Shown here: piece by piece, positions 2,674 through 62,592 of the stretch
Layout: each line of letters begins with the position of its first letter
Position numbering within the stretch: the first letter of the stretch is position 1
NCBI GenBank assembly: GCA_028023455.1
Contig: JAQFVV010000010.1
Coordinates: 4,154,001-4,218,000 of the forward strand
Length of the DNA stretch: 64,000 bases
Direction of reading: 5' to 3'
Source: Epiperipatus broadwayi
Taxonomy: Eukaryota; Animalia; Onychophora
Notes under the pieces: generated by a model
The model's database searches: none
The model's input: the letters and a program-made list of their open reading frames with translations, nothing else
What the model was told of the DNA's origin: nothing
Translations under genes and position numbers: made by a program

Positions 2674-2685
2674 TGGAAAATTTTC

Positions 2686-5105
2686 ACAGGGAGAAGCCAG
2701 AATTCTTATTTATTGTTCAGATAATTGAGAAATAAAAGTACTAAGACAAACAGCCAAATTATTTGAGATAAATATAAATTATAAAATAAAAGCTTATAAT
2801 ACAACATATAGAGTTATATCAGGCTTGTACCAGAAATAATAAAATTCAACACTCTGGCAGACAGACTAATTTTCTAATAGTGAATTAAAAAAAAGGAACA
2901 AATTTTCTTCAGCTGACCATTCATCTATAATACTGGTTTCCTTATTCAAGGATATGAAAACAATAAGTTCTGGAAATAAATCAACGAAACAGTGTCGGTG
3001 AGCGTTTTTTGGCCTGGAAAAATGTGTCCGGACCAAGACCGTCATAATGCCGGTAGAACATCCCGCGATAATATCACGTTTAAGATTATGCACGGTTGAT
3101 TTACCCCATGAACAAAAAAAATAAATGAATAAATACGTCTGCATATAAATTATAAAACAGGAGGAAATTTACATCTCCATTTCAATGAAATAATAAAATC
3201 AGAAAATACCCCGACGTAAATGATTTCAAATTAATAACATATTAATTCTATGATTAAAGGAAAACAGACCTTTAAAACTGGTGAATCCCCAACCAAACGA
3301 TTGGCCAATACTAATAATTAGTGGTCTCAGTAGAAGACAAATAATTAGAAAACCAGTTACGTCTACCCAAGCATTTCAAGACAGTGAAATAATTATAATT
3401 ACAAATAAATTGATAAAGCAAGTTCTTAGTACATGCTCTGATAAAATTTGAAGCAACACATAAAAGACAAAATAAATCTAGTAAGCAAATATAAATGCTG
3501 ACCTAGATTTTTATCAGTCAATTTATCAGAGAGTGTATAAGAGTAGAAAATATTAAGACATTAAATACTTTAGCAGAAAGAAACTCTTTCATCTATAATT
3601 TACAAGGGGATTAATGTTATCTTCCTGCTGGCGATTTATAAAATTACAAAGAACAATTCCAGTTTCCCATTTTGGAGACATAAACACAAATACGGTCTTG
3701 CAGGGAATCAACGAAACCAGCACGGACAAGCTCACATTAGTTTATGGACTAATGAGGTCATAATGCCGTAGGACTGTTGCACGTTATACTACATTTAAAA
3801 CAAACATGATTGATTTCCAACAAGATGAGAAAAATATGATTACGGCCTTACGTAATCTAGGAAAAGAAGAAACAAAATCTCTAAAAACGGAAAACCAAAA
3901 CAATAAACCGCCAGCCAAAAGATTTTGCGGTTTTATAAAAGTGCAAACACAAAATTTTAAATCAATTATTGGACAGTAAAATAAATACAGGTGAGCAAAT
4001 TAAAATTATGCAAGACTGCTAAAGCATTTAGAAAAAGTTAGGCATATAAAGAGATATGTTAAGCCTATAAAAATATAAACTCACAAGACACTCTCCGATA
4101 AATAAAATTGAAAGCAAACTTGGAATCTTAAAACTAAGACTCCAAGACACTATAAATACAATGCAAAGCAAATACAGTTAATAAATAGGAGATTAAGTAA
4201 TTATAAAGTCTACAAATTTATTTTAGATTGAGCGGAGATTTAAATAAAAGAATTTACCTTCAAAAGAATAAAAGAAAGTATTTACCGTATGGTAAAGCAA
4301 AGTTCGCTTAGTTTTCCTAGCATGCACACTTTTGTTTAAGTTCATATGTTAGATGTTCCATCCTTTTACAGCAGGAAGTGTAGAGGTATATTGGGGGTCC
4401 GGTTTATTTTAGACTTATAGCATGACCGGAGGACAGCTGGCAGACATGGATCCGTCTTGGTTTAAGCTAGCAACGCATATTGTTGATTACAAACGTACAG
4501 TAGTATATTTTGACATCTTGTGAAGAAACCAAAATCTTTTAACAACTGCAAGAAATTAAATGTCCGAACTGCTACCAATATGGTATGAATCTCAGCAGCA
4601 TAATCGAAAAACTATTGTCCAAAATTTGCGAGGTTATTTATACCCACACTACATTTCCTGCGTAAACTTTTCTTGTTTTCGAATTCTACACCTTAGGGCA
4701 GGGCAAATCTCAGCCTTCTGCTCAAACTAATTAGGAATTCTAACCAGGGATTATTTTAAAAAAAAAACAACAACACAAAATTAAATCTTTGCTTTTAGAA
4801 TTAACTTTAAAATGATTAAAATAAAAGAGACAGTAATGTAATTAAAAAAGTTTTTTTGTTTTTAATCAATTTGATTAAAAAATAAAATAAAACAAGCAGT
4901 AACAGAAAACTATTTTAAAACCAATTTTATGTAATAAAAAAATAAAATGATATATTTTAAACATAAACCAGTATGTGTTCTAATACACATACTCCTATAA
5001 ACAATTTTTTAAATAGTTATATAAATTTAACTTTAATCAAACCAAAAGTTAGTTTTATTTTTAGTGAAGCAACTTTTGAGATGGTTGATATGCGGTTCAA
5101 TACAT
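2686..5105 (+). mobile_element. Unclassified ~2.4-kb interspersed element, copy 1 (decayed coding remnant of an unknown protein)
   Basis: Colinear by eye with 55559-57985 along its whole length. It has an internal duplication (~2800-3160 vs ~3520-3860). The 3' part translates as SVEVYWG..SWFKLATHIVDYK..QNLRGYLY..EFYTLGQG. Confidence 0.75.
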
Positions 5106-5644
5106 TCAAAAAATAAAACATTAATTCTATGGTATTGATTTTAAAACCAAGAAAGCATACAATGGATGCAAAAAAATGATGTGTGCCAATAACCAAAAGT
5201 TAACATTTTATATTAAAATAAAAAATTATATTTTTGTTAGTTTTTTTTAATGAAATGAAGTTATATATTTTATAAATTCGCATAAACATAAAAAAATAAT
5301 AAATTAAAAAAAAATAGAAAATTAAAAACATCTTGTAGGTATTGCATCTCCATATTAAAAATAGAATAAGTTATGGCAATGAGAAATGACATATCTAAGT
5401 TCATATTAAAATCATTAAATATGACTTTTGATTTGGAAATATATATTATATAGTGCTTTCCTAATGTAAATTTAAAATAAACATTTTAAAATTAATTTTT
5501 ACCTTCTAACATTAGATTGAATTTATATGCAATGGTTAAATATCCAATATAAAAATAATTATTTGTCCACAATGTTGTTATTGATATATACTTAACATAA
5601 TAATCAATCTAAATAAAATTGAAACAATGAATTATATTTACAAT

Positions 5645-25680: not shown

Positions 25681-28600
25681 AATGGCGCAATTATCTGCTT
25701 GAGGGTGCAAGGGAATTTGATCAAAGAAAAAAATGGCATTACCCAGTTAAAGTTTAAAAGAGTTTGATATTTGTAATCCCTCATATGGAACATTTATGAA
25801 TATATAAATCACTATATGAGTCTACTGAAGATAGATGATGATAGGGTGAAAGGTTTCACATTGTTATTTTTATTGGAGTGGAGGTATTATTAATAGAAAA
25901 ACAATAGTGCAATTCAAGAATTTTAGGTGATGTATTCTGAACTACTGTAAAATCAAATACTTATTTTCAATCAGCAGGAATAAAGAGAGTGGCACGTTTA
26001 CGATTTTGAATGCAGAACCAACTACCTTGAGAGAATTATTAGGATTATAATCTAGTTTTAAGAAGTGTGGCAAAACATTGTGAATTCACATCAATTTCTC
26101 TATGATATGTGGGACTATCATTTTCAGAAAATCTTGCTGAACAAAACTGATTTAATGTTTAAAGCATTCATCGGAAAGTGTATAGCTCACTATATTCTGT
26201 TGAAAAAAGCTTACAGAGTTTAAAACAGCCTTTGAAGGGGAAAGAAATTTGGCAACTGTCAATAAGACTAGTGTATAAGTTGCTTAAGAATCTGCAAGTA
26301 ATAGGTCCACATGTTATGGTAGGATTGGTCACATCAAGAAGTTATGTCGATTTAAAAATGAAAAATGTATGATATGTGGTATTAAAAGTCATTTAGCTCA
26401 GGTGTGTAAATAAAAGCAAGATAATGTGAAAAATAAGCCATGCCTGAACTTTAAATTGGGGGGGGGGGATTTGATAGGGTAGGGTTAAAGACATCAAAAA
26501 ACTTTACTAATGACCAAATTACATTACAGGTTGCTGTTCATGGATTTAAAGTTACGATGGACGTCGACATTGGAACTGGATTATTCATTATGTCATTAAA
26601 AGAGTGGAAAAGAGTTAGATCTGAATCTAAGAAGACAAATGTAGTGGCCACAGATGTAAATGGTAATAAAATACATATCTGTGTAAAAGTTTCTATTGCA
26701 ATGGTTGTAAATATTTAAAAATAAATAAAGTAAAAATGGAAATGGAAGTTAAAAATAAATTTCCTAAATTATTTAAACAGGAAGTAGCTGAGTTACGAGT
26801 ATGTCCTGTTAATATTGAACTGTCAAGAGAAGCACAGCCAATGGTGCTAAAACCACACAAAGTACGCTATGCACTTAAGACAAAAGTGGAAGAAACAATT
26901 GAAGAGATAGTGAAGAAAGGAGTGTTGGCACCAGTCAAAGATTCGATGTGGGTAATCTTGTTGTTTTAGTAAAACCAGATGGAACGATTCGTTTCTGTGG
27001 AGATTACTGGGTCATGGTTAACAAATTGATTAATAAAGGTGTGTATCCTTTTCTAAATGTGCGTGATGTGTTTGGCATTGTTACAGAAAACCTAGGTCTT
27101 AGCAAAAATTGATTTGAAATCAGCGTGTCATCAAATCCCAGTTACCAAGAGTACAACTGAGATGTTGACACTGAGTACTCATAATGATGCAACCAATTAC
27201 CTTATGGAACCATGGTGACTTTGAATATCTTCCAAGCTAAAATGGATTGAGGGAGTTATTCCATACTTGGATGATATTTTGGTTACAGCCCAGTCTGAAG
27301 AAGAACTGAAAAAACAGGTTATGGAATATGCTCTAAGTTAAATATTATAGGAACGAGATTGATGCTGCCAAATGTATTTGGGTATCCTCACAAATAACTT
27401 CTTTAGGGCATGTAATAAATAAGGATGGAAAATACCTGAATCTGGAAAAAGTAGTGAAAGAAGCGGTTTACTATCAGGAATGTAAAAGAATTAAATTATT
27501 TTGTGATTGCTTAACTTCTATGAAAGCTTTTTTATAGGGAAATTGCATAATTTAAAATCGTTGTATTATTTATTGCGGAAGGGCCAACAGAAGTAGAATG
27601 ATGAGCATGTAACAGACAAGAACAAAAGAATTACTGATGTCACACCAACTTTTAGTACCTTATTGTAGCGACCTGGAAGTTACTATTACTACTGACACAT
27701 CTGAATATGGAGTTGGGGCTGTTATCACACATTGTTGTCCTGGTAGAAAGCGTCTAATTGCCTAAACATTTAGCATTATCATCAGGTGCGAAAAACTATA
27801 GTCAGCTGGATAAGGAAGTTTTGACAATAATATTCATGGTAAAGATTTATATTCTTTACTGACCATCACCTATTGCTAGGAATTTTCGGGAAAGCTAAAA
27901 AGATATCTGATTGCACGAGCCAAAGGATGGATAAACTTATTAGCAGCTTATGACTGAACTGATCTATAAACCAGTCAAGAAGACTGTGCATGCCTGTTAG
28001 AGAAGGTATTAAAACAGGAAGAAGTAAATTTGCTAGATGACTTTAAAGTGATAAAATCATGAAGTGGATTTCTAATGATCCTGAGTATGGTATGCTGATT
28101 AGTGGATTTGAGAAAGATGGCCAGATAAATGTCCCTAGTTTTGTAGCTGTTGCAATTTGGAATGCACATCATAATATGTTAGTGTGTAATGGATGTATCT
28201 TAAATATTGACAGAGTGTTGATATCTATAAAAGGCTGTACACCAGTAATTAACTTACAACATCGGTGACATCCTGTAGTGATAAAGTGGAAGGCTATGGC
28301 TTATCCCTACATATGGGGGCCTAGAATAAATAATGAAATAGAGCAAAAAGTAAAGAAGTGCTCTGATTTTAAATCTACTGTGCATCTTGTAAAGAAAGTA
28401 TTCAAGCCATGCTTAGAAGCAAAGAAGCCAAGAGAATATGTTCTCATGGATTATACTGTAACAAGAAATGGAAAACATTATGCTAGTTATGGATGATTAT
28501 TCAAATTGAGCCAAGTCTAAACTAGTAAAATCTGTGAACACAAAGAATACCATAAAGACATTACAACCAAGTGCTCTGAAAAGTAAATCATCTGCTGAAT

Positions 28601-29102
28601 TACTTTGGGAAGAAAATGTTATATACATTTATTAAAACTTTTGACAACACATAGACTGGAGAGAAGGAATTCACGTCATGAAATAAATAAATGTAATTTA
28701 AGAAAATTTGTTATAGATGATGCTGTTTGGATTCAAAATATTGTAAAAAGACATGAACTTTATGTATCATTGTTGAAATTGTATCTAAAGGTATACATGT
28801 TGAATGGAGGGGGTGTAAGAAAGTACATTAATTCTTTGCACAAGAGATTTCGTGATATGCCAATAATAGTTGTTATTAGTCCTATTATGGCTAATCCTAA
28901 ATTAGAAAATTTAAAAAAGGATTTAAATGAGGTTATAGTCCCTCACACCCAAGATGAAACTTGGCCTATTGAACTAGTGGAGAAGGCCAAGAGAATGCTG
29001 ATGAGTTGTCTGGTTAAGCAGTTATCAGAAAAGGCAGATCAAAATAATTTCATTATAAGAAATTGGACAAATTCAGGGATTATTTTCTAAAATGAGGGGA
29101 GG

Positions 29103-40618: not shown

Positions 40619-41621
40619 TGGTTCAATACTAATCCTGATCAAACAATAAAAATGTCTAGTTATTTAAAAAAAAAAAACAAAGACACCAAACTATATAAAT
40701 ACTGAAGTGGATTCAGATTTGTATGTTTATACAGATAAATTAACTTGGATTGAATACAGTATTGTGTTTTGGTTTGGGTTGATCGCTTTATAGTTAAACA
40801 AAAAGCTAAAATGTGGGTAATATAAACCTGTATTTGATCTAAAGGTCCAAGTTGCACTGATTCTCGATCCAAGGTTCCTTATAGTTAGAAACTAGTCCAA
40901 GGATATTGAATAGAAAAACACTGGATACAGATTATGATGCCCAATCCTCTAGAATCAAGTGGTTACTATTGTTTGCAGTAGGTATCATTTTTGTGGGGAA
41001 ATTTTTTGCTACTGTTTTAAATTATATAACTTTTTTTCCCAAAAAGAATAATTTTTTTTAATGATAATGGATTTTAATGATAATTCTATATGCATATAGA
41101 TGTAAAAATAAATGATGTAAATGTATAGTATGATTTTCTATCAAAAATATTTTGAAATATATAAATATAAATAATAAAAATAAACTAGTCATTTTAACTT
41201 AAATATATTATTAGAAAGAGTATTATAATATTTACATTAAGAATATGCATTGTATGCTAAAATTTACAACTGCATTTTCATAATTGATGTAAGTTTACTT
41301 TACATTATGCACATTATTGTAAACTGTTGACCATCGAGGGCACAAAAATGTTTTGAAATATTCATAAAATAAGGTCAAAGAATATATATATTATTTATAA
41401 CTCTTCCATTAATTATGGTTCAATAATATCTTATTTTGGAAGAAGTTTTATTTGAACAATAAAACAATTAAATTTCTCATTTTATTCATTTGTAAAAGAA
41501 AAATAATAATATGATACAAATCTTAGAATGTGACTTAAAAAAGAATTTTAATCTTTTTTTAATTCATTTTTTTATTTAATTTAGGAGGAGTTCAAGATCT
41601 GTTCTTTAAAAGTATAAAGTA

Positions 41622-42746
41622 CACCCGGGTCTCATTTTATGCGGATTTATTTAATGTGATGTTGAAGTTATGTGATTCATGTTTCTTCTTAATATCTTTG
41701 TATGCGGGTTTCTTTTATGCGATAAAAATTATTAGATCAGAATATTATAAATTTCGCGCACTCACTTCATATTTAAAGTAATAGCGCATTATCGGAGTTC
41801 GACTTCCATTTTAATAATTTCAATATTTTCAGCGCTTTATAATAGTACTGTAATAGATTTTATGCAATAAAGAAGTTCATAATTCACTTAAAATCAGAAT
41901 TTCCCCATTTTATATACACACATTAAATTTTACAAGACTATAATGTAAATCTGTTCAAACATTATAGATGAAAAATACTATGTATTGTTGTTGCTTTTGC
42001 ATTTTAAATCACATTCTATTTTTGCTTTTTATAAAAAGAGTACGTAATCAATTAACCATTTAGTGACTGCAAGTTTATTTTTAAAAGGTGAGTAACAGTG
42101 GTCGGCACAATTAAATTTGACAATTAAAATCTGATTTTTAGTTGTAATTAACAATTTAAAAATTACATAACGTGATTTGAAATTAAGGTGATGTGAAACG
42201 ATGAAATTTGATTTTTAAACGGAATTGAAAATTCAAGACAAAATTTTGCCCAACAGTGGTGAGTCGGTGTCTTTTTATTATCGTAAGTCTAAGTTCTTAT
42301 TTTTATTTTAAACTTTTAGTTTACTCTAACTGAGAGAGACAAAAAACACCCAAGAAAATGAATTTCTTTGGAAACAAAAATTTCAATTTTAGATCACTTA
42401 GCAAAATGGGAAGGATCAACAGCGATTGGAAAACGTTTAGTGTATTTCCTCTTGACTTCATTTAAGGAGAAGCTACAGTACCTCACATCACATCACTTCA
42501 TGATTAATCTGATGTCTCAAATAGCGATAATGTTTAAAATACCGTACATGTATGAAAAAAATGTAAATTACGCATAAAAATATATTGTTTTGAATAAAAT
42601 TAAATATTGTAGTTAATAAAAAAAGTAAAAAAAGTTTGTCTTGTATCAATTTTTTTCAAATTTGAAATTTTTTATTAGTAATATTTTATTTTTTTATTTT
42701 TTTTTATGCGAATTTTTAAGTAATTTTACATTGTTGCTTTGCTTTT
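41622..42746 (+). mobile_element. pogo/Tigger-type element, copy 2 (one TIR, other end missing)
   Basis: TA|cacccgggtctcattttatgcg. It is the reverse complement of 14950-13610. The HTH remnant ETKISILDHLAKWEGSTAIGKRL lies in ORF 42368. Confidence 0.85.
42451..42496 (+). mobile_element. ~46-nt extreme 3' end of the 1-2673 LINE family, inserted in Tigger copy 2
   Basis: cttgacttcatttaaggagaagctacagtacctcacatcacatcac matches 2633-2673 and 62445-62485 (-). It is absent at the matching site of Tigger copy 1. Confidence 0.8.
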
Positions 42747-45700
42747 TAAACATATATATATTTTCTTTTGTGTAAAACTTCAGATTTTTGAACTGATCTA
42801 TCTTGCTCTTGATGATGTAAAATAATTTGAAATTTCAGACCATAGGATAAGCATTTTGCCATTTATTTCCAGATAGTGTCTTTCATAAGAATTTTATATA
42901 TTGTGATGATCACACATACTGTGATCACACATGTGTACATTTCATATATAATATCGCATAATATTAAATGTGAGTTTTATATGTAAATTAATACATAGAA
43001 AATTGGATAAGGAACGTAGGGAAGAAAAAAATTTATTTTAAGATAGTGTCAATTAAAAAATCAAAATGGAGTAGTTGAGGAATGCAATTAAAAGCAGAAT
43101 CAATTATAGTAATTAAAGAAAATGAAGGAAGGTAAGTGAACAAGATTCTTATCTTTTACCTTCCAAAGTCAACTTTTTTAAAAATTTAAGATTTGGAAAG
43201 TTAAGGGAATATTAAAATAGGATCATCGAAATTGATGATCAAGTCTTAAAGGGAAAAGTAAATAAAAAGAGGGTTAATGATTTGTAGAATTAGCAATCAT
43301 AAAATTCGATCGTTGGTATAAATAAAATAAATAGATTTATAAAAAAGATAAAGATCGTCTCTTTAAACTACACATTGGGACGTCTGAAAAATATGTATAG
43401 CTATGGAAAGGAAAGAAAGGTAGTGTGTAAATAAGAAAATTGTTTTATGGAAAAGTAACAAAAAACAAATATTATGGAAGTAAATAAAAAAAAAAAGAAA
43501 AAACAAGAAGAAAATTTATGCATTTTATGAGAGAAAGTAAAATAAAGAGTGTGAAATGTAATTAATGACTTTCCAATGAACAATAAAAGAAGATAAGAAA
43601 AGGATTCTGGGACAAGACAGTAAGAAGTTGTGAAGGAAAGGAGCCATGTTTGAGTTCTTCTTGAGAGTCTGCTGAGCCGAGACACAGATTAGTTTGTGAG
43701 CTGGTTTTTTTTTTATATATGAACAAAACGGACCAAGAATTTGAAGCATCGAGAATGCAGGGATAAGGGGCCACAAACGGACGCCAGTTGATCCACGCTC
43801 GCCCGGGGGTAATGTCATCTTCCTCATGAAGTAACAGCAGAGATAGCGCCTGCCTGATGGTTCACCCTCCCTGTCATTGAAGCTGCAAAGAATACGACAG
43901 AAGTAAGCTGCATGAAAGAATCCGAGCCGGATTCCAAGAATTTCCATCTCTCCAAAAGAAGTGGAATAATCCACATGATGGTTAACTAATTAGTTGTCCA
44001 AGTCCAGAAAAACCTAGGTAATTAAACTTTAAATATATCACGCGTGTATACACTTTCTTAAAATGGCCACAGAAATTAAAATGCAATTGTAACTGTAAAT
44101 ATTAGTAAATCAAATAATTAGTAGTTTTCTTTATCCAATAATACGTGGAGAAAGGGACTCCAAGCTCTAGAATATCTACATATAAATTAAGAACAATTAT
44201 TATTCAGGGTGAAGGGTTAAATTAAATATAAATTGTATTATTTTAGTGATTTCTTATTTTATGTTTAAATATTATATTTTTAGTGTGTATTTAATGTATT
44301 GTATAAAAAAGTATCTATGAATGAATAGCTCTTTACATCTCGTCTTTCTTTCTCCACCATACTAATTAGAATGATATACCTGTAAGGCTTATTATTAAAT
44401 ATTAAGTAGACATTAATTCTAGTAAAAGGTACACATGTCAATCTAGTACAGTAACGTTAAATCTCGTAAATTTTATAAATATTTCAAGCACTGGGTTGTT
44501 TTATTAATCATTCTTATGAATGGAGTATCCAGCAGCCAAGGAGCGTCTGGTCGGGAAAAATAATACTGGAATATTACATTGGTAATCCCACTGTTCGATC
44601 ACGAATATAGACTTAAATAATTAGTCTATATTGGCTTCTTGCTTGACGTGTCAGTTGTGTCGATAGTAAAAGTGTAAATTAAAACATTTTATTAAGAATC
44701 GAAAAGGTAATTCTGTTACAATATATATGCTGAATTCTTTCATGGTGATCAGATGGCATTGTATGTATTATCATATGATGTCATGACATATGTAAAAACT
44801 TAAAAGAGCTTGTTGAAAAAGATTGTTGCTATTAAAAAATAGTTCTCAAAAATGCTGGTCTTGCTATGTATTTTTTTTTTTTTACAGAACTTATAATAAA
44901 TTATACATAGATCGATTGATTTTGGACTCCAAATATTTTTTTATGTACATTAGAATAATGATGATAATACATTTTTTATTATTGCCAAAAATATATTTTT
45001 TAACCACACATATTCATAAAAATATATTTGAAGTATATTTGTAATTATGGTATACTGTTTTTATTATTATTGTATAGATTCATGTAATTGGGTTTAATAA
45101 TGTATTGGGAAAAATATTAAATTAGAAATGGTTTGTTTTTTATGTAGCGAATTCATTTTATAAACAAAAAATTTGAAATCAATCAAGTTATAAATTTTTT
45201 TAATGTATTGTTATTAGACAAAACAAATCTTATAAGTTGGCATCATAGGACAAAAACATGTTAAAGATGAAACAAAAGCTTTCTTTTAGTATTGTCAAAA
45301 ACAAATTTAGATGTTTTATTGAAACAATAGTATTAGGAATAATTTCATTTTGTGCTTCAGAAATGCAGTTTGTGCACTGGAAGTTTCAAATTGAACTCGT
45401 GGTCCATCAATCTTTAGTTCTAATGTTGTCATTTTTCAATATTTTTAATCAATTAAGTTATTTATGTCCTAATATTACTGTTTAATAATTATAATTTTTA
45501 TCTAAATATATATATTTACATTTATCAGGATCATCTTCATTTAATTAAATTCTGTAAAAGTTAAGATTATAACCACTATGAACCTTAATAATGGTAAAAT
45601 GTACTACTTTTAATACTCTGGTTCTGACAGACAATAGGTGAAGGCTTTTGGAATTTGTATAAAGATAGATAACAAACACAGTGTTATTAGTAGTCATTGG

Positions 45701-47160
45701 TCTTAACTGTCCACTGTCTGATCTATATGTATGGATTCTGTATTTTTAAATTTTGCAAGCAATTGGCTAACATAAACTCCATTATTAGTTCATGATCTAA
45801 ATGCAGTCAGTTGTTAATGTATTGTTTTTTTCCTTTTGATTTCTTATAATTAGATATTATGTGGGATTTGTGTTTATTTATTCAGATGCATCATAATCTG
45901 TAGAAATACAAAATTGTTTATGAATCTATTATTAGGCCTTTTAGGAAAAAGGAATTGAGAAAGTTCTATTAATATTCTATTCAAGATATCCTGTATATTG
46001 ACTCTGCTCAACTTTCCTTAAAATCCATCTCTGATAATGATAATTTTCAATTTTAAGAATGATTGTTTTATGTTGATTATGGATATTAATAATAAATCAG
46101 CAGTTAATAGTGGCTTTTTTTTTGTCAGAACAAAAGTCTTGCCCTTCTGAATAGAATGTTTTTTTTTTGTTGGTATTATAAAGAAAATGTATGTTTTTTT
46201 AAATCCATTCATTCTAAATTTGAGAATCTGTTTGATCCTCTTTGTATATTCTCAAAAGTTATTATAAGGATTAGAATTTCCTAATTATACAGAAGATATA
46301 GAAAGATCTGGAAGAGGATGGGTAAGGTCAGCTTGTAAATATTGCGTATATGAAAATTATCTATCGTAATGATAATTGCAATATCATTTGAAGTAGCTTC
46401 AATAGAAGTTGTTGACCCAACAAAGTGGTTTGTAACAAAGCCCTAGCTATTCCATATTTAGAACACATTCTGACATGAATTTTATGAAAATACACATTAT
46501 CAGAAGAATGATGAACTCCTGAAGTGTAGTAACATTACCATTGTGTTGAACAATTATTTTTTAGAGGTTCTTCGTTTTTTGATTTTGATATATCCCCAGT
46601 TATTAAGTTGAAATTATTTTATTGTTCCTAGGTGAAGAGAATATTACTTGAAAAAATATATCTGGCACTCAAGATGTTTTATAGTTGCCAAAAGCATGTA
46701 GTCATTTCTGTGGAACTGGCATGATTATTTCTTATGATATTGTTGGAGTTTACGCTAATAATTTTATTGTGTTTTCATAATTTTCTGCTAAGCAAGATTT
46801 CATTAAAATATTGTCTGATTTTCATGTGAAGACAATTTGTTCACATGCTAATGCATGCTACTTTGCAAAGTGGACTATACGAAAACTAACATCCATTAAC
46901 TCCAATAAATAATTATTTGTAATATTATAAATGTTTTTGAAAAGACAAAAAGTAAGTGAATCACTGTGAATAAATAACACTGATTTAAAAACAATTATTG
47001 TTTATATTACAGTCTTAAATTGTTTTTTTATTTTCTTTTTTGAATAATATAAGTATGTGTAAACATAATTTATAATTGTGGCAATTTTTAATCAGTGAAT
47101 TATTTCAACAACAATCTATTTTCTTCAATTTTAGATATAAAGATTAAATTTACTAAATAT

Positions 47161-47657
47161 CAAATTTATCTAGATTTTTATAAATTTATGTTATTTTTAT
47201 CCTTTTGTTTTATTATTATTCATGTGCATAATCTAATATCTTTGTAAATTATTTCTGTTACTACATTCACTTTTAAATACCCTATTATACATGTAAAATA
47301 AATAAATATTCTAATATGCAGATTGACTAGAGTCATCTCAATCTCTTTAAATAATCATATGTCATCCTTATGTATTTACATATGTGATGTAATTAGAGAG
47401 GATTTAAATTTATCAAATTTATCTAGATTTTTATAAATTTATATTATTTTTATCCTCCTGTTTTATTATTATTCATGTGCATAATCTAATATCTTTGTAA
47501 ATTATTTCTGTTACTACATTCACTTTTAAATACCCAATTATACATGTAAAATAAATAAATATTCTAATATGCAGATTGACTAGAGTCATCTCAATCTCTT
47601 TAAATAATCATATGTCATCCTTATGTATTTACATATGTGATGTAATTAGAGAGGATT
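47161..47657 (+). repeat. Recent tandem duplication, 253-nt period, 2 near-identical copies
   Basis: caaatttatctagatttttataaattta...gatgtaattagagaggattt starts at 47161 and again at 47414, with only a few mismatches. Confidence 0.92.
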
Positions 47658-48392
47658 TGAACCCAGATTTTCAAGCTCCCTTCAATCATTCACTCCATCT
47701 CATACAACCGATACACATAAACACATGTGTGAAAATATAAATCTCCAATATACATATTTTGTTATGAACCGGTACTCATTAGTTGATCTGGAACATCGTT
47801 TCCCACACACATATATAATTAGGGCTTGGTTTATATTAAGATAGCAAATCTGCAAACTCAAATAGCCAGGCTTCAGTTTTTTCCACTCTTCAACCATACA
47901 TATCATTGAAAATCTGATGATGGTATGTTCAAAGCATTTGTTTGCCAATTTTGTTATCATACCTGTGTTGACCGTAAGTCATCTGACTTGTATTTAAATA
48001 CAATGATACCTGTATTTAAATATTACAGATTCAGCTTGTATTCTGCTCATCTCTCTTCTGTGTATTGAAATGGACTTAAGATCCTACATATGATGGATCA
48101 GAATGACTTATGTTCAACATTGATATGACAGTAAAATTGCCAAGCAAGAGCTTTGAATATGCCATCATCAGATCTTCAGTGATATCGGTGGTTGGAGAAT
48201 GGAGCTTACTTATATGTATGTATGGGAGATGATGATTTGGACCGAATGATGAGTTCTAATTTAACCCTAAATATGTATATTGGAGATCATTTATTTTTTT
48301 CACATGTATGTGGTCATCTGTGTCAGTAGTAGATGGAGTACATGACTAAAAGGAGCTTGAGAGTCTGGGTTCAAATTCCCTCTAATTACATC
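47639..48392. mobile_element. ~750-nt fold-back element (F2-related) with tRNA-like ends and an HHR remnant on each arm
   Basis: Nested inverted pairs: 47639-47760 with 48270-48392, ~47905-47975 with ~48110-48185, and gtaagtcatctga with tcagaatgacttat. HHR remnants lie at 47741-47795 (-) and 48238-48288 (+). Confidence 0.78.
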
Positions 48393-53974: not shown

Positions 53975-55460
53975 AACAATGTGAAAACATAGACATTATG
54001 TCAAAATTTTATAACTTTATCAGATTAGTTTTTGATTAATTGACTTTTCTTTTTTTATCTATATGTAATCAATTATTTTTAAAATATATATATACTTTTA
54101 AACCCCTACAATGCATTAATATTTTAAACTTAGAATAGCACTGCTTTGTTGTAAAACTTAGTGTTAATTTATTATTAAAAATAAATTCATTATTCTTGTT
54201 TAGACATATTATAGTCACAATTAAAAGATATTAACTAAAATTGTTTCTTTTTCTCAATATTCTTTATTTAAAAAATTAAATAACATAATGATTTGTATAT
54301 AATTTTTTTTTAGCCATTAGCCATCTTTGCTTTGTTTTATCAATATTTAATTTAAATTGAATTTGTTATTCTCTAATGAGAAATCAGTCTTTAAAATAGT
54401 TCAAACAATTCCAGAGATCAAAATATAGTATTAACTTTATATCCTAATCATTTTATTCATATTTCTGATTGTGTTTTTGTAGCTTTTTAAACAAAAGAAT
54501 ATTATAGAGCTAAAAAATAGATCAAGTGAGAAATGCATTCTCTAAGAATATTTTCTAGTTTTGCTGATCTTTATGACACAGTGAATTGCTGGTGGTGCTT
54601 ATATGGAAAAAGACTCCAATGCTGCAAAATCATTTTTGCAATTTATTCCACGTAAATTATAAACTAAGGCTAGTTTGATATGATGATGAAATACTTGGAT
54701 TATTTACCTAATTATATTTTAGAAATTAATGAAGAAACTCTCCTGACTGTTCAGATCATTGTGAATAAAAAAGAAATGGTGTAGCTTTTAATTTGCAGAT
54801 ATATTGAGAATTTGATTTTGTAGATTTTCATTCATTATTATTATTATGATTTAAGACTATGCTCCATCAGCCTATACAAATGAGGAAAAAATTAAAAAAA
54901 TGTATGAACAGATGCAATAAGAAATTGGTAAAAATTGCCAGCAAAACATGCTTTCTGTAATCAATGACTGATTGCCAAAATTGGAAATGGAAATAGTGTG
55001 AACAATTTGTACTTGGAAGCAGAAATGAAGTAAGAGAAGAGCTTTTTAAAATTTTTGTGAATTTATTGCCAACATATTTTTAAAGGAGTCAAAACACTAA
55101 TATTTGCAGTAATCAAATAGATTATATTCTAATACCCACTGATGGATGATTTCAGTTTTAATAGTGAAAACATTGTTTAGAACAGAATGATGAAACATTT
55201 TGAATTACGTGTAAATTTTGAGTAATGGTGAAAACTTCTGTTTTAGATGTAACTTTAACTATTGATACTGATTTTAGGAGTAAGATCTGATATTGATCTG
55301 AAGTTTTAAATGTTATTAATATTGAGTCGTATAAACCATGAATTTAAATGAAAGAAAGAATAAAATAAGGGAATTTTGTCCAAAATGAAACAACTAGATA
55401 ATTCAAAATGAATATCAGAAATTATTAATAGTTTTATATATTGTAATGGACATTCAATCT

Positions 55461-57985
55461 ATCCTGATCACAGAGGGCGCCACCAGATAACTACGTATCT
55501 GGAAAATTTATTTTCTGTGATCAAAATGGACGTGGAAGATGGTTTGCATCGACTAGATTCAGGGAGAAACAAGAGATCTTAAATATTGTTTAGACAATTG
55601 AGAAATAAAAGCACTAAGACAAATGTCAGCCAAATTAAGTTTAAACAAATTTTAAATTTTGTTTACGAGAAATATAAATTATAAGGTAAAAGTTTAGAAT
55701 TCAACAAGTAGGGTTATATCAGGCATGTACCAGAAAGAATAAAATTCAAAGTTCTGGCCGACAGACTATTTTTTTAACAATGAATTATAAAGGAAGGAAA
55801 CAATTTCTTTCAGCGGAGAATTCCCCAACAACACTGGTTTTCCTCTTTACAGATACGAAAACAATACGTTCTTGAAGTAAATCAACGAAACCAGCGCCAG
55901 CGAGTATTTCTTGGCCTGGAAAATGCGTCGGGACCAAGAACATCATACTGCCGGTAGAAGCTGCATTTTATACTATGTTCAAAGCAAAGATGATTGATTT
56001 ACCCCAAGAACAAAAGAAAAATATGATTAATACGTTAGAGTATAAATTATAAAACGGAGGAAATTTACTTCTCCAATTTAATGAAATAATAAACTGGGAA
56101 AATACTCTTAACATAAATGATTTCAAATTAATAAAATCTTAAACCTAGGATGAAAGGAAAACTGACATTTAAAACTGGCGAATCCTTAACCAAACGATTG
56201 GCCAAAACTAATCTAAGAATAATAATTAGAATTCTCAGTGGGAGACAAGTAAATAATTAGAAAACATGTTATGTCTGCCCAAGCATTCCAAAAAAGTGAA
56301 ATACTTATAATTACAAATAAACTTATAAACCAAGTTCTGAGTACATGCTCTGATAAAATTTAAAACCACAGTAAGGACAATAAATCTAGCAAGCAAATAT
56401 AAACTGTGCCCTAGATTTTTGTAAATTAAATTATCAGAGAGTGTCTACAAGTTGAAAATACGAAAACATTAAATACTTTAGCAGAAAGGAACATTCGTTC
56501 ACCTATAAGTTACAAAGGGGATTGATATTATTTTCCTGCTGGCGACTTATAGAAGAACAACAATCCTAATGTCCTGATTCAGTGATATATGAAAAATATA
56601 CGGTCTTGCAGAAATTGACAAAATGTCACCAGCGAACATTTCTTGCCCCAGAATAATGCATTAAGACAAGAATGTCATATTGCTGGTTGGACAGCCCTTC
56701 GATATACTACCTTTAAAGCAATTCGGAGTCGATTTACATGCAAGACAAAAGAAAAGTATGATTACGATCTTATGTAATCTAGAAAATAAGAAATCTCTAA
56801 CTACAGAAAACTAGAACAATAAACACGATAAACTGCCAGCTAAAAGATTTTGCGGTTTGCAAAAGTGCAAACACAGTATTTTAAGTCAATTATTGAACAA
56901 TAAAATAAATACAAGTAAACAAATTAAAATTACTCAAGACTGCTAAAGCATTTAGAAAAGTTAGGCATATAAATAGAGATATATTAAACATATAAAAATA
57001 TAAACTCATTAGACCCTCTGATAAATAAAATTGAAAAACTTGGAATCTTAAAACTAAGATTCCAAGTTACACTCCAAAATACACATGAAAAGCCAATACT
57101 GTTAATAAACTGGATGTTAAATAATTATTAAGGCTACAGATTTATTTTTGAGATAGAGTGATTTAACTAAAGAATATCCCTGGAAAGAATAAAAAAGAAA
57201 TATTTATGGTAAAGCAAAGTTTCATGGAGTGCGCACTTTTATTTGAGTTCATATTTCAGGTGTTCCATTTTGACAATGGCAAGTGTAGAGGCATATTGGG
57301 GAATCTGGTTTATTTTACTCCTTTATAGCGTGACTGAAGAAGGGCTGGCAGTCATGGGTCTGTCTTGGTTTAAATTAGCAACGCATCTGGTTGGTTACAA
57401 AATGTACAGTAGGATTTTTGACATCTTGGGGAAAGCAAAATGGTTTTAGGAAAATAAATGTCCGATCTGCTAACAATATGGTACGAATGTTGAAGGATTC
57501 ACTTGGACTAGCTTGTTGCAGCTAAGAATAAAAACAAAACTATTGGCCCAAAATTTGCGGGGTTATTTATACCATGCTACCTTTCCCGCAAAAACTTTTC
57601 CTGTTGTAGAATTCTATGCCTTAGGGCAGGGCACTCAATATAATGAGGAATTAACCAGGGATCATTTTAAACAACAACAACACAAAATTAAATCTCCGCT
57701 TTTAGAATGAACTTAGAAATTATTAAAATAAAAGCGACAGGAATGTAATTACAAGCTTGTTTGTTTTTTAATCAAATTGATTAAAAACAAGCGGTGAAAG
57801 AAAACTATTTTAAAATCAATTGTATAAAAAAAAAAAGAAAATGACCTATTTTAAATATAAATGAGTATGTGCTTTAATACACGTACTTTTTTTAAATTAT
57901 TACATTAGAAGTTTAATGAAAATTAAAGTTTTTTAATTTTTGGTGATCAAACCATTGAATCGGATATCAATCCGGTTCAATATAT
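55461..57985 (+). mobile_element. Unclassified ~2.5-kb element, copy 2, with terminal hairpins
   Basis: Homologous to 2686-5105 and located between RTE endonuclease and linker fragments. 5' hairpin at 55466-55522; 3' hairpin attgaatcggat-atca-atccggttcaat at 57954-57981. ORFs 57243 and 57513 are the best-preserved coding part. Confidence 0.78.
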
Positions 57986-58159
57986 ATATAAAAAAGAGGA
58001 GCTAAAATTAAAAAATTATAAAGGAAATTCTAAAAAAGCAGCCATAAAAAACAAGTCATATTTTAATAACAATTGTTACAACATTGAAAGTGGAAGAAAG
58101 TTTAGAGAAACAACAAGTGTTTTTTCTGGGAATTTTTTCGAAGGTTTGTGATGATATTT

Positions 58160-58946
58160 TAGTTGTTTTTATATATTGGAATATTTATATCATCTAATAT
58201 TAAGTATTGAATGTCTTTAGAAAAAATTAACTTTTTATTTAAATATTCCAACTACATTTAATGCTTAGTAATAGTACACAGGTTACTATATGCACAATGT
58301 TTCAAAGGATATTATTATCCTCTTGTTTTCAGGCATTGCTGGCCTGACCAATAACATTACTAACAAGGAAATTGAAAGTGAACCCTTAGATTCTTGAATA
58401 TTGAATTTTAAGATAATACTCTAACCAACTGAACCATTCTGCCAAAAACAACAGTCAGTAGAAATTTCATACACTTATCTATGAGGTTCCTCCTGATTTC
58501 TCCACTTTTTTGTAAGACTAAACATTATGTATAATCATACTAGGTTGACTTATGGGGTTATTTCCCATTGTCATTATGTGAGCACCTTTTTTGAATTTTC
58601 TTTGTACCTTTTCTTCTCAATCCAATATGTTTGTATTTCCCAATTGAACATATATTTATTGATACATACATGATCTGCTATCTTAGACACGTTTGCTTTC
58701 TCCTAATCATCAGTTTGTGCTCTTGCAGTCTCTTTTTAATGGGGCAGCTGGTCTCACTAATATACATTCTTCCACATTCACATGGTACTTCATAGATGCG
58801 CTTTTTACTTTTTAGTATTTCAAGTTTAGGCTTTGTAGATGTTAGAATTCTTCATAGTGTGCTATGACTTTGGAAAGGTTACACATATATTAATCTGTGT
58901 GCTATTACTAACACTTGAATGTAATTAGAATATTTAAATAAAGTTT
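58160..58946 (-). mobile_element. PLE GIY-YIG fragment enclosed by inverted repeats (F3 arms)
   Basis: IYEVPCECGRMYISETSC..KRLQEHK..IADH (58797 downwards). Arms are 58160-58293 and 58884-58946. A tRNA-like segment lies at 58380-58445 (-). Confidence 0.85.
58291..58334 (-). ncRNA. Decayed PLE-type hammerhead motif
   Basis: gcCTGAAAAc-a-agaggat-aataat-atccttt-GAAAC-attg: a 7-bp stem II, with G8 and the CpG of GAAACGTT mutated. Confidence 0.55.
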
Positions 58947-61900
58947 TTTTTTTTTTGGGAGTTTGTGAGATCAAAAAGAATCTCAACTATTTGCTGAAAA
59001 ATGCAATTGGACAGCTTATAACTGGAATAACAGTGTTCATAAATGAATGAAATATTCAGGATTTTTACAATGTCAATATCTTGTATATTTTATATCAACA
59101 ACCAAGAAAAACTAAAAATGGAGCATGAGATCAGATTCACATAAGAATATATGGCAATGCATCAGAAATTTTTACACAAAACTGAAGAATCAATAAAATT
59201 ACTGATGCAAATTATGAAGTCTGAAAAACCACACATAATGGCCTGTAGTTTTGAAAAAAATGAAGTTATATTTTTGTACAAAATAAAAAAAAATTATTTT
59301 TGGAAGACTGAAAACTATTGTATTTTATCTTTTAGAACACATATAAGTAAGATTTTTTTCTAAAAATGATACACCGTTAATTAGAGCCTTGTTGAAAAAA
59401 TATATCATTGCTAATGAACAAATAATAAACGAAAAGGATAAGTAGTGTTAAGAGTGAAATCAGCATACACCTTATTCATTTGATTTTGTTGACTACAGAA
59501 TATTCTTAGGAAATCGAATGTACCAGAACACCTCATTTTTTTTAATGAGGAATATTTCTAACAGACTAGAAGCTATATCTAAAATTGATCTGATTTTATA
59601 TTGACAAAGGAATGCAATGGTAATGAAAATTCTATCTATTTATTCAAGTATTATAAAAATTTATGATGTATAATGAGGAAAGCCAAATTGGAAGGCAATA
59701 TGACTATGGGTGATAAGAAAAATATCAATATCCTTAGATATACTGAAAATTTCATATTCAATAGCCAAAAAATGAGAAGTTTGAGGTTTGTGTTAATATA
59801 TTTAAGAAATAAAGTAAAAAGATGATAATAAGGCTAAATATTAAAAATATGTCTTTGTTATTTTTTTCCTATTTGATTTGATCATTTATCAACAACCCAC
59901 GAAGCCACCAGATTAATAGTAAAATAGTATGATAAAGATCTGAAGATGCGATAATATATATTTAAAAATAACGCTAAAATTGTTCAAATGAAGTATTGTC
60001 TGTAGATGTGAAAGTTAGACATTGAAATATCAGGTTAAAAAAAAGTATTGATGCTTTTATATTGCAGCCGAACAAAGGCTATTAAGATTGCTATTTATAG
60101 TTATAGTTGGAATATGAATTTATGTATACTATATATAATTAGATGTTTACTGTCTTATTTTCATCACATGAGGTAATTTAATTCATTAGAAAATTTATAA
60201 AGTCCAAAAAGTTGATGGTGAAAAACAATTAGTCAGGAGATGGATAGATTTTTGTCATCATTACAATAATTATTTCATTGGTCAACATATAAAATAAAAT
60301 TGATAATAGATTAAAATGCTGGAACTTGCCAAGAGTCAATATGTACCCAACTGAATTAAAAATATTGTTAGCAAAGGTGCACTCTACATATATATTTGGC
60401 TTTATTTTTTGGTTAAGGTATTTGGTTTGTTTAATCAAAAATATTTGCAGCAATGTTTATGATGAGCTGATTATCTGCTGAAGTTTATTTATTTTATACA
60501 GCTTGTGAAGAAATGAAGTGTTTTTATTGATGGTGAAAAATTTGAAATGAAAAATTGTATTAAACAAGAGTATGTACTTTTACCTTTGTTTTATATTTTT
60601 ATAACTGGTTTTTGAAACATTTTATAGGTAACTTATGAAATGGTCATCAAGATTTGATGTAAGTTTGATAATGCAGTTTTTAATTTGAACTGATTAAAAA
60701 CAAAAATAATTACAATATTTTCGCCAATTTAAAGGATGATTTATAAAATATTCTTAATTTTTTTAATGCAATTTAATAAATAATATTGGGGGGAAACAAT
60801 CATCAGCAACATTTAGCTTGTATTATTATCAGTTTGAGAATGTGAGAATCAATTTAAATATCTTGATATTAAGTACAATGAAAACTCCAAAATGCTGCTG
60901 CATAATTATTTTTACTAAATTGTCTTAGTATATGGCTGTTATTTTGCTCAATTTATTACATGAAAATGACCTTTTTATTAATATATAGATCCAGGAAATT
61001 TTTGGATGTGATAGTATTGAATCTATTAGTATAAAGGCACATTTTTATTGGATTGGGCATTTGAATTAAAAAAGTGATAACAGATTTCCCAAGAAAGTAT
61101 TTTATTGCGATCGATCGTGAGTTTGGTATTCATGGCAGAGACATTCAATACTTTATAATATAAAGTTTATGTCAAAAATACTTTAAAGAGAAGGAAGGCA
61201 TGGTTGATTACTTTCGTAATAATAATATGGGTAAAAATGTTCAAGTATTCTTAATTAAAAAATTTTGCATAACAATTAAATTTGAAGAAATCATTTGCAT
61301 TTTTTTTTTTTGTGGGATCACATAATATATACATATAATGTGAAATGAATGCAAACTCTCCAAAATAGACTTATTAATATATAACATACTGACACATGTT
61401 TTATTATAAATTTTAACAATTTAAATGACTTATTACCGGAGAACATTTATTTGAGTTATTATTATATGGTGTATAAAATTTCAAAAAATTTTTTGATACA
61501 GCTCAATCTTTTTCATTGGCTTAATCGCATGGTTTTCTAAGTTTTTTTTGTTTCTTCATTCATAGATTATATATTATATCAATCTTCGCCATTATTAAGT
61601 GTAAAATATATATCTTCTGATCCAATAAGTTATTTTATGCATTTGCCTTCAATATAGAATTGATTTTCAAAAGATGTTAATTTTCGTTTTGTTAATCTGC
61701 TGCATAATAATAAAAGTACCTGTAGCCTTTATTAATTTCATTGAGTTTTTTTATACCCCCAGTTTGGATAACAAAGTTTTCTATTTAGCATAATCTCATC
61801 TCAATTTTTTTCTTCACCAATTTTCAATTACATGCTAGCGTTTTCATTAATATTCATCATTTTAGTTTTGATATTAATTTTCAAATTAGTTCATTTATCA

Positions 61901-62444: not shown

Positions 62445-62592
62445 ATGTGATATACTGTAGCTTCTCCTTAAACGAAGTCAAGAATCTCTCAGCAATTATG
62501 CCCAGAGAAACCTGTTAGCCACTTTATTTTCCATTCCCCAGTCTAAGTTTTTCCATATTCTGCTCCATCCCATTTCCACAACAATCTTTGTC
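62445..62592 (-). mobile_element. 5'-truncated 3' end of the 1-2673 LINE family, nested in the PLE
   Basis: The reverse complement matches 2513-2670 (gacaaag..ggaaatgggatggagcaga..aaagtggctaacaggtttctctgggcata..aaggagaag). Confidence 0.9.

What the first reader, a model, noticed from the sequence alone, without database searches (positions are those of the whole stretch)
55461..57985. Unclassified mobile element encoding an unrecognised protein
Seen: two diverged colinear copies. In the last ~470 nt, the differences concentrate at synonymous sites of one + frame (aag cta/aaa tta, cga/cgg, aca/acc, cct/ccc, gcg/gca, tac/tat). The reading is SVEAYWG..SWFKLATHLVGYK..FDILG..MS.LL..WYE..QNLRGYLYHATFPAKTFPVVEFYALGQG..KIKSPLLE. 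I see no RT, DDE, HUH or helicase motif. This copy splits an RTE LINE between its endonuclease and linker, so it was inserted there. Inference: an endogenous viral fragment, captured-gene cargo, or an undescribed transposon protein that evolved under purifying selection.
Basis: partly seen in the sequence, partly recalled or inferred. Interest (0 to 1): 0.75.

Follow-up and report, generated by a model that had tools for sequence, protein, structure and literature searches.

The report
Rolling-circle-type transposon carrying dead unknown gene
This is a decayed, repeated 2.5-kb element with hairpin ends, likely a non-autonomous rolling-circle (Helitron2/Helentron-type) transposon, whose last third likely preserves a long-dead gene fragment that matches nothing in the databases searched and shows no sign of purifying selection.

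Summary
The repeat is real: 55560-57993 and 2687-5113 are colinear at 75% identity, and public runs show many more copies. Five of the six cited pairs sit in one 27-codon block. There is a 5' inverted repeat folded into a hairpin (z -4.5), and a partial copy of that repeat 4 nt before a 12-bp 3' hairpin. This is the Helitron2/Helentron (DINE-1/HINE) layout; the TT target and the transposase could not be confirmed. A dead reading frame probably did exist: none of 8 stops in one 247-codon frame is shared by the other copy (P≤0.003; about 0.01-0.05 for the 184 codons that stay in the family's frame). No protein search found a relative, and the fold model was poor (pLDDT 38). The RTE flanks are in the right order, but only by recalled motifs. 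Verdict: likely a non-autonomous Helitron2-type element carrying an unidentified gene relic that is decaying neutrally.

The parts
55459..57990 (+). Whole element, copy B. Both ends are approximate: the 5' end lies between about 55440 and 55465, the 3' end between about 57982 and 57995.
   Evidence: Similarity to copy A runs to 57993. Depth rises inside bin 55336-55502 and a unique flank contig ends at 55476.
55465..55474 (+). Candidate 5' asymmetric (subterminal) inverted repeat
   Evidence: Pairs 10/10 with 55514-55523; fold -13.3 kcal/mol, z -4.5, 0 of 200 shuffles as stable.
55483..55502 (+). Inner 7-bp hairpin inside the 5' fold-back
55514..55523 (+). Internal inverted repeat (IR) complementary to the 5' repeat, 39 nt from it
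55741..56123 (+). Old internal direct repeat, unit 1 (present in both copies)
   Evidence: 63% blastn identity to unit 2, z 17.7; no codon-level constraint between the units.
56465..56850 (+). Old internal direct repeat, unit 2
57037..57068 (+). Internal perfect 14-bp hairpin; possible earlier 3' terminator (inferred)
   Evidence: One of only two hairpins in 64 kb that pass the scan; largely kept in copy A; lies in a local depth peak of 118,583 in X1.
57177..57728 (+). Copy B has stops at 57210, 57447, 57471, 57708 and 57714.
   Evidence: The frame has no stop shared with copy A over 56988-57728. GC is 0.38 with AT skew 0.0, against GC 0.31 and skew +0.22 in the body. Divergence is neutral.
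57940..57949 (+). Candidate 3' asymmetric inverted repeat, partial (8 of 10 bases; 7-base core exact); more degenerate in copy A
   Evidence: The sequence shows it directly; the 7-mer occurs 7 times on the + strand of the window; family D18.
57954..57981 (+). 3' terminal hairpin, 12-bp stem with one G-T pair
   Evidence: z -2.85, 1 of 200 shuffles as stable. Decayed in copy A (z -0.8).
2687..5113 (+). Copy A; lacks the first ~100 nt, including the 5' hairpin
54855..55300 (+). Host LINE, endonuclease-like remnant (RTE-like by recalled motifs)
   Evidence: Motifs at 54858 and 55111; no database hit.
57995..58150 (+). Host LINE, linker-like remnant (recalled resemblance only)
   Evidence: translation
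59490..59850 (+). Host LINE, RT-like remnant (RTE-like by recalled motifs)
   Evidence: Motif at 59733, translations; no database hit.

Best explanation
The stretch is a decayed copy of a multi-copy 2.5-kb element with hairpin ends, likely a non-autonomous Helitron2/Helentron-type rolling-circle transposon, and its distal third likely holds a captured gene fragment that was already dead when these copies diverged. SHOWN: the repeat, its multi-copy state, the 5' fold-back, the partial 3' inverted repeat just before a 3' hairpin, neutral divergence, and the lack of shared stops in one frame. INFERRED: a Rep-helicase encoded elsewhere in the genome would nick the 5' end, peel off one strand, stop at the 3' repeat-plus-hairpin, and paste the copy without a target duplication, here into an old RTE-like LINE. 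MORE WEAKLY INFERRED: an ancestor ended near the internal hairpin at 57037-57068. Read-through of that hairpin (end bypass) would then have added the compositionally distinct segment 57170-57990, which looks like the last coding part of a gene followed by an AT-rich tail. That cargo would have been copied passively, with no protein made.
For: ENDS. The 5' repeat pairs with a downstream repeat (z -4.5). A partial copy of it ends 4 nt before a 12-bp hairpin, where similarity to copy A stops. This is the layout given for Helitron2 (PMC3627910 passages) and for DINE-1/HINE (PMC4067079, PMC2374699 passages). Only two hairpins in 64 kb pass the scan, and both lie in this element. Depth is far higher at the two ends than in most of the body, as expected if shorter relatives share the termini. 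No RepHel or other transposase domain is found.

CARGO. 0 of 8 stops are shared in the frame 56988-57728. In 57213-57710 that frame shares 0 of 3 stops, while each of the other five frames shares 6-8. P≤0.003 with three aligners and ≤0.002 under simulated neutral descent. Base composition shifts at about 57210 in both copies. Divergence is neutral.
Against: The 3' repeat matches only 8 of 10 bases and is worse in copy A. The 5' IR lies 39 nt away, outside the 3-22 nt given for DINE-1. No clear TT junction exists at either end, no empty site could be examined, and no DINE-1-type microsatellite is present. Copy A lacks the 5' end, so the 5' hairpin rests on one copy. No autonomous partner could be sought, because no genome is held. 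For the ORF: with copy A as reference the test is not significant (P 0.15-0.19). Copy B is one base shorter than most laid copies near 57177, which cuts the family-frame run to about 184 codons (P about 0.01-0.05 from the percentiles). Stop-poor frames in single copies do not beat shuffles (P 0.09-0.75). The shared-stop-free run starts 5' of the internal hairpin, so it does not itself mark a capture junction.
Confidence: 0.5

Rival explanations
1. The element is as described, but there never was a gene: the stop-poor frame is a chance feature of a GC-richer non-coding segment.
For: No homologue in any search. No codon bias. Single-copy frames lie within shuffle range. The test is not significant with copy A as reference. 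The model has pLDDT 38.
Against: 0 shared stops against 6-8 in each other frame; P≤0.003 with copy B as reference. The same test also flags a control repeat that looks like a Tigger/pogo transposase remnant (weak CENP-B_N hit, E 0.11). One 27-codon block has a synonymous excess.
Confidence: 0.2
2. The element is not rolling-circle. It is an internally decayed member of another or undescribed transposon group (Crypton-like or retro-derived), and the frame is its own former protein.
For: The TT target is not seen. Both copies end in a short A run. The body is strongly A-rich on the + strand (skew +0.22) and has a weak coding signal (P=0.027, one of four regions tested). A 6-base word occurs both just before the 5' repeat and in the 3' hairpin arm, which recalls Crypton terminal repeats.
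Against: The asymmetric repeat-plus-hairpin ends are the Helitron2 signature. Depth is highest at the 5' end, the reverse of what 5'-truncated retroelements give. No recombinase, RT or DDE model hits. Animal Cryptons are reported to lack terminal repeats (PMC3212892 passages).
Confidence: 0.2
3. The cargo is a fragment of an insect-virus gene (an endogenous viral element) picked up and amplified by the transposon.
For: There is no host-gene or transposon homologue, which is common for divergent viral genes. The segment's composition is foreign to the rest of the element. A paper title (PMC4344730, listing only) reports a non-autonomous Helitron shared by insect and viral genomes.
Against: No confirmed relative in IMG/VR, PHROGs (best E 0.026) or phage records, and 0 hits among 1.84 billion representative proteins. 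These collections cover animal viruses poorly, so the blanks are weak evidence.
Confidence: 0.1

Closest known systems
HINE / DINE-1 non-autonomous Helentrons (Thomas et al. 2014, PMC4067079: passages and section 6; Yang & Barbash 2008, PMC2374699: passages)
   Same: A 5' subterminal repeat with a nearby internal inverted repeat; a 3' repeat followed within a few bases by a stem-loop; internal direct repeats; no transposase; high copy number; occasional broken gene fragments as cargo.
   Different: The repeat is 10 bp with an imperfect 3' partner, against 12-15 bp. The IR is 39 nt away, against 3-22. There is no microsatellite, the TT junction is not seen, and the cargo matches no known gene.
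Helitron2 / HLE2 group (Bao & Jurka 2013, PMC3627910; HELIANO, PMC11417382; FoHeli, PMC5148889; passages only)
   Same: Hairpins at both ends and 8-15-bp asymmetric inverted repeats, the 5' one pairing downstream and the 3' one just upstream of the last hairpin.
   Different: No RepHel, DUF6570, RPA, OTU, UCH or endonuclease domain is detected. There is no Fanzor signature: only one CxxC-like motif, and no Pfam hit.
End-bypass gene capture by Helitrons (described in PMC6544945 and PMC5148889, passages)
   Same: An internal hairpin followed by a compositionally different segment and a second terminal hairpin.
   Different: No source locus is known and no shorter relative ending at the first hairpin could be retrieved. 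PMC6544945 itself favours a filler-DNA route for its own family.

Membership tests
Helitron2/Helentron non-autonomous (HINE, DINE-1) | 5' asymmetric inverted repeat that pairs downstream to form a 5' hairpin | tested here: met
   55465-55474 pairs 10/10 with 55514-55523, z -4.5; one copy only
Helitron2/Helentron non-autonomous (HINE, DINE-1) | 3' subterminal copy of the repeat just upstream of the 3' hairpin | tested here: inconclusive
   8 of 10 bases, 4 nt before the hairpin, in copy B; more degenerate in copy A
Helitron2/Helentron non-autonomous (HINE, DINE-1) | 3' stem-loop near the end | tested here: met
   57954-57981, 12-bp stem, z -2.85; decayed in copy A
Helitron2/Helentron non-autonomous (HINE, DINE-1) | Insertion between T and T with no target-site duplication | tested here: inconclusive
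   No clear TT and no clear TSD at either junction of a diverged copy; ends not fixed; no empty site available
Helitron2/Helentron non-autonomous (HINE, DINE-1) | Autonomous RepHel partner sharing the ends | not testable with these tools
   no genome held
DINE-1 proper | GTCY microsatellite in block A; IR 3-22 nt from the 5' repeat | tested here: not met
   No tandem repeat called inside the element; IR is 39 nt away
Canonical Helitron (HLE1) | 5' TC and 3' hairpin followed by CTRR | tested here: not met
   No CTRR follows either hairpin (sequence)
Autonomous transposon or retroelement | Recognisable RT, DDE, HUH, helicase or recombinase domain | tested here: not met
   0 Pfam families in 12 frames
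Endogenous viral element | Similarity to a viral protein | tested here: inconclusive
   All searches blank, but animal viruses are poorly covered
Protein under purifying selection | dN/dS well below the neutral expectation | tested here: not met
RTE clade (host LINE) | Endonuclease, linker and RT in order on one strand, belonging to one element | tested here: inconclusive
   Order and strand fit by recalled motifs; no profile hit; a second RT-like piece lies further downstream

The most novel reading that the evidence does not exclude
The distal frame is the fossil of an undescribed protein family, either a new Helitron2 accessory gene or a gene from an unsampled arthropod virus. It was captured by end bypass and amplified to many copies across related species, and an intact source gene still exists in this lineage.
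Probability: 0.2. Interest if true: 0.6.

Novelty: new member of a known kind. Interest (0 to 1): 0.3.

Why it matters
As it stands the finding is modest: one more non-autonomous rolling-circle-type family in an AT-rich animal genome. The open point is the cargo. Gene capture by Helentron-type elements is reported as uncommon, and the authors note that detecting it depends on similarity to known proteins (PMC4067079, passages). A captured frame with no relative among 1.84 billion representative proteins would be an example of cargo that such surveys miss. If its source were found, it could define a new transposon accessory gene or virus gene. The case also shows how one 27-codon block can look like purifying selection when judged by eye.

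Tried and rejected
GENOME: none is held, so copies could not be collected.

PROTEIN SEARCHES, all blank.
- Pfam: 12 whole frames and 6 pieces (best zf_CopZ E 0.014, below its cut-off).
- PHROGs: 5 pieces (best E 0.026).
- Word-indexed database, proteins longer than the query only: 0 of 56 candidates; 0 of 1001. One search was sent in the wrong frame by my error and tells nothing.
- Full HMMER scan with the three-row profile of 57276-57707 plus copy A pieces: 0 hits at E≤0.001. The part 56988-57275 was not in that scan, and proteins of similar or shorter length were not searched in the word-indexed database.
- PDB sequences. tblastn on phages and plasmids.
- ESM Atlas: only a 71-aa stop-free stretch of copy A's body was searched (best score 0.87, a lead at most).

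STRUCTURE: AlphaFold2 on the three-row alignment gave pLDDT 38 and pTM 0.25, so no fold search was run.

RELATED LOCI: none confirmed in viral, metagenome or genome contigs. DNA patterns gave 0 hits. The 59 metagenome loci matching the 5' repeat pattern were unrelated (0 of 59 similar).

RNA: Rfam and tRNA scans were blank, which argues against a tRNA-derived SINE head. No RNA holder is listed; this says nothing about expression. Run X7 (organism C) covers the 5' end and the internal-hairpin bin but not 57173-57673. That would suit end bypass, but missing cover is not counted as evidence.

IDEAS DROPPED.
- A third copy of the internal repeat in the ORF region: z about 0.
- Codon constraint between the repeat units: P 0.29-0.96 in 12 tests.
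- LTRs: the internal repeats are more diverged than the two copies are.
- Recalled resemblances to CRAL-TRIO, Maverick polymerase B and Fanzor: no profile support.

No supplements were read. Terminal-sequence tables in the supplements of PMC4067079 could bear on the family assignment.

Full report
SETTING. The window is 26% GC and full of decayed repeats. No genome is held. The host is an animal, probably an arthropod; this is my inference from composition and repeat types.

THE REPEAT IS REAL. Self-comparison gives 55560-57993 against 2687-5113 at 75.2% identity over 2548 columns (alignment). Six of eight listed public runs hold part of it, from two studies, and the best holder may be the source sample. 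On DNA run X1 the flank bins have summed depth 54-173. Body bins have 2,190-30,369, the 5' bin 452,744, the bin 57006-57172 118,583, and the last two bins 133,550 and 65,209. The tool warns that depth is not a copy number, but the contrast with unique contigs of depth about 30 shows a dispersed family whose ends are more widely shared than its middle.

THE SYNONYMOUS BIAS DOES NOT HOLD. pN/pS is 0.53, against 0.69 for a null that keeps the substitution spectrum, P=0.21. Codons touching alignment gaps, and the stretches 57303-57323, 57429-57457, 57488-57548 and 57636-57674, were left out of that count. In copy B's single long frame, 143 codons give 25/26/25 and 0.67 against 0.72. One 27-codon block (57549-57635) gives 4/1/7, P=0.005; it was picked after the fact and holds five of the six pairs quoted. 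Of four regions tested with best-frame selection, only the 5' body reached P=0.027, and the last 470 nt gave P=0.92. The stop at 57447 is a stop in the laid copies too. The amplified subfamily therefore did not encode this frame intact.

A DEAD FRAME PROBABLY EXISTED. Single-copy stop-poor stretches do not beat shuffles (P 0.086; P 0.11-0.75). But the stops of copy B in the frame 56988-57728 are private: 0 of 8 are stops in copy A. In 57213-57710 that frame shares 0 of 3 stops, while the other five frames share 6-8 each. The 247-codon run has P≤0.003 under column shuffles with three aligners and ≤0.002 under simulated neutral descent. Against this, with copy A as reference the best run is 136 codons (P 0.15-0.19). 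Copy B is also one base shorter than most laid copies near 57177 (table 4), so only about 184 codons are in the family's frame, between the 95th and 99th percentiles of most simulations. A control repeat also scored (P 0.005-0.04 with one copy as reference, 0.06-0.19 with the other). It looks transposase-derived, but it could also mean the null is liberal. I put the chance that this frame once coded at about 0.7. Its region differs from the body in both copies (copy B: GC 0.38, AT skew 0.0, against GC 0.31, skew +0.22) and is followed by a 21%-GC tail.

NO RELATIVE FOUND. Pfam, PHROGs, PDB sequences, the word-indexed database (longer proteins only; one search was in the wrong frame), the full scan of 1.84 billion representatives, phage and plasmid records and three contig collections gave nothing significant. 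The model had pLDDT 38. The queries are decayed and partly out of frame, and animal transposons and viruses are thinly covered, so these blanks do not prove novelty. Earlier scan findings held nothing for this sequence or genome.

THE ENDS CLASSIFY IT. At the left, 55465-55474 pairs perfectly with 55514-55523 around an inner 7-bp hairpin (z -4.5, 0 of 200 shuffles). At the right, an 8-of-10 copy of that repeat (57940-57949) ends 4 nt before a 12-bp hairpin (57954-57981; z -2.85), where similarity to copy A ends. A scan for stems of at least 11 bp with at least 3 GC pairs found two in 64 kb: this one and a perfect 14-bp stem at 57037-57068. Bao and Jurka define Helitron2 by a 5' asymmetric repeat pairing downstream and a 3' repeat immediately upstream of a hairpin (PMC3627910, passages). 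DINE-1 and HINE elements have the same plan, with central repeats and a TT target (PMC4067079 passages and section 6; PMC2374699 passages). The fit is incomplete: the 3' repeat is imperfect and worse in copy A, the IR spacing is longer than in DINE-1, there is no microsatellite, no TT junction is evident, and no transposase partner can be sought. So it likely works like a HINE, but membership is not established. A 385-nt direct repeat at 725-nt spacing (z 17.7) predates the split of the copies and shows no codon constraint.

HOST SITE. Endonuclease-like motifs at 54858 and 55111 and RT-like motifs at about 59490-59850 lie on the + strand in order. After removing the insertions the spacing is roughly that of an RTE ORF (recalled). 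No profile confirmed them, and a second RT-like piece lies beyond, so 'one RTE element' is plausible but not shown.

MECHANISM. Shown: dispersed copies, terminal structures, neutral decay, and one frame free of shared stops. Inferred: mobilisation in trans by a Rep-helicase through single-strand peel-and-paste, ending at the 3' repeat and hairpin. More weakly inferred: capture of the distal segment by bypass of the internal hairpin, a model described in PMC6544945 and PMC5148889 (passages).

LITERATURE. Five searches were for definitions of these element types. I did not search for this family or peptide in print and make no claim that it is undescribed. PMC11417382 and PMC3212892 were seen as passages, and PMC4344730 as a listing only. 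No supplements were read.

VERDICT. This is likely a non-autonomous Helitron2/Helentron-type element carrying a dead, unidentified gene fragment (0.5). Rivals: no gene at all (0.2), another transposon type (0.2), viral cargo (0.1). New member of a known kind; interest 0.3.

Noticed in passing
window 1-2680: Decayed non-LTR retrotransposon (RVT_1 E 2.6e-8; zf-RVT E 5e-4) directly abutting copy A where A's first ~100 nt are missing. Its 3' part recurs inverted at 62445-62592 (84%).
   Followed up: partly
window 13610-14951 and 41621-42746: Two inverted copies (79-84% identical) of a repeat that looks like a Tigger/pogo transposase remnant (weak CENP-B_N hit, E 0.11; label partly recalled).
   Followed up: partly
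window 58140-58960: Very high-depth repeats in all four runs laid, with inverted arms 58220-58312 and 58864-58956; further insertions into the host LINE.
   Followed up: no
window 60330-60850: A second RT-like remnant downstream of the first, by recalled motifs; at least two LINE pieces lie right of the element.
   Followed up: partly
window 47158-47658: Two-copy tandem duplication of 253 nt at 98% identity: recent, or an assembly artefact.
   Followed up: no
window 42904-42932: Short hairpin built on the same 7-base core as the element's terminal repeat; possibly the end of a related family.
   Followed up: no
window 28599-29090: Longest stop-free frame in the window (163 codons), with no Pfam hit.
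   Followed up: partly
window 55453-55458 and 57976-57981: The same 6-base word lies just before the 5' repeat and in the last arm of the 3' hairpin; chance or a target mimic.
   Followed up: no
window 57140-57152: T-rich stretch ending in AG just upstream of the relic frame, in both copies; it could be a splice acceptor of a captured last exon (by eye only).
   Followed up: no
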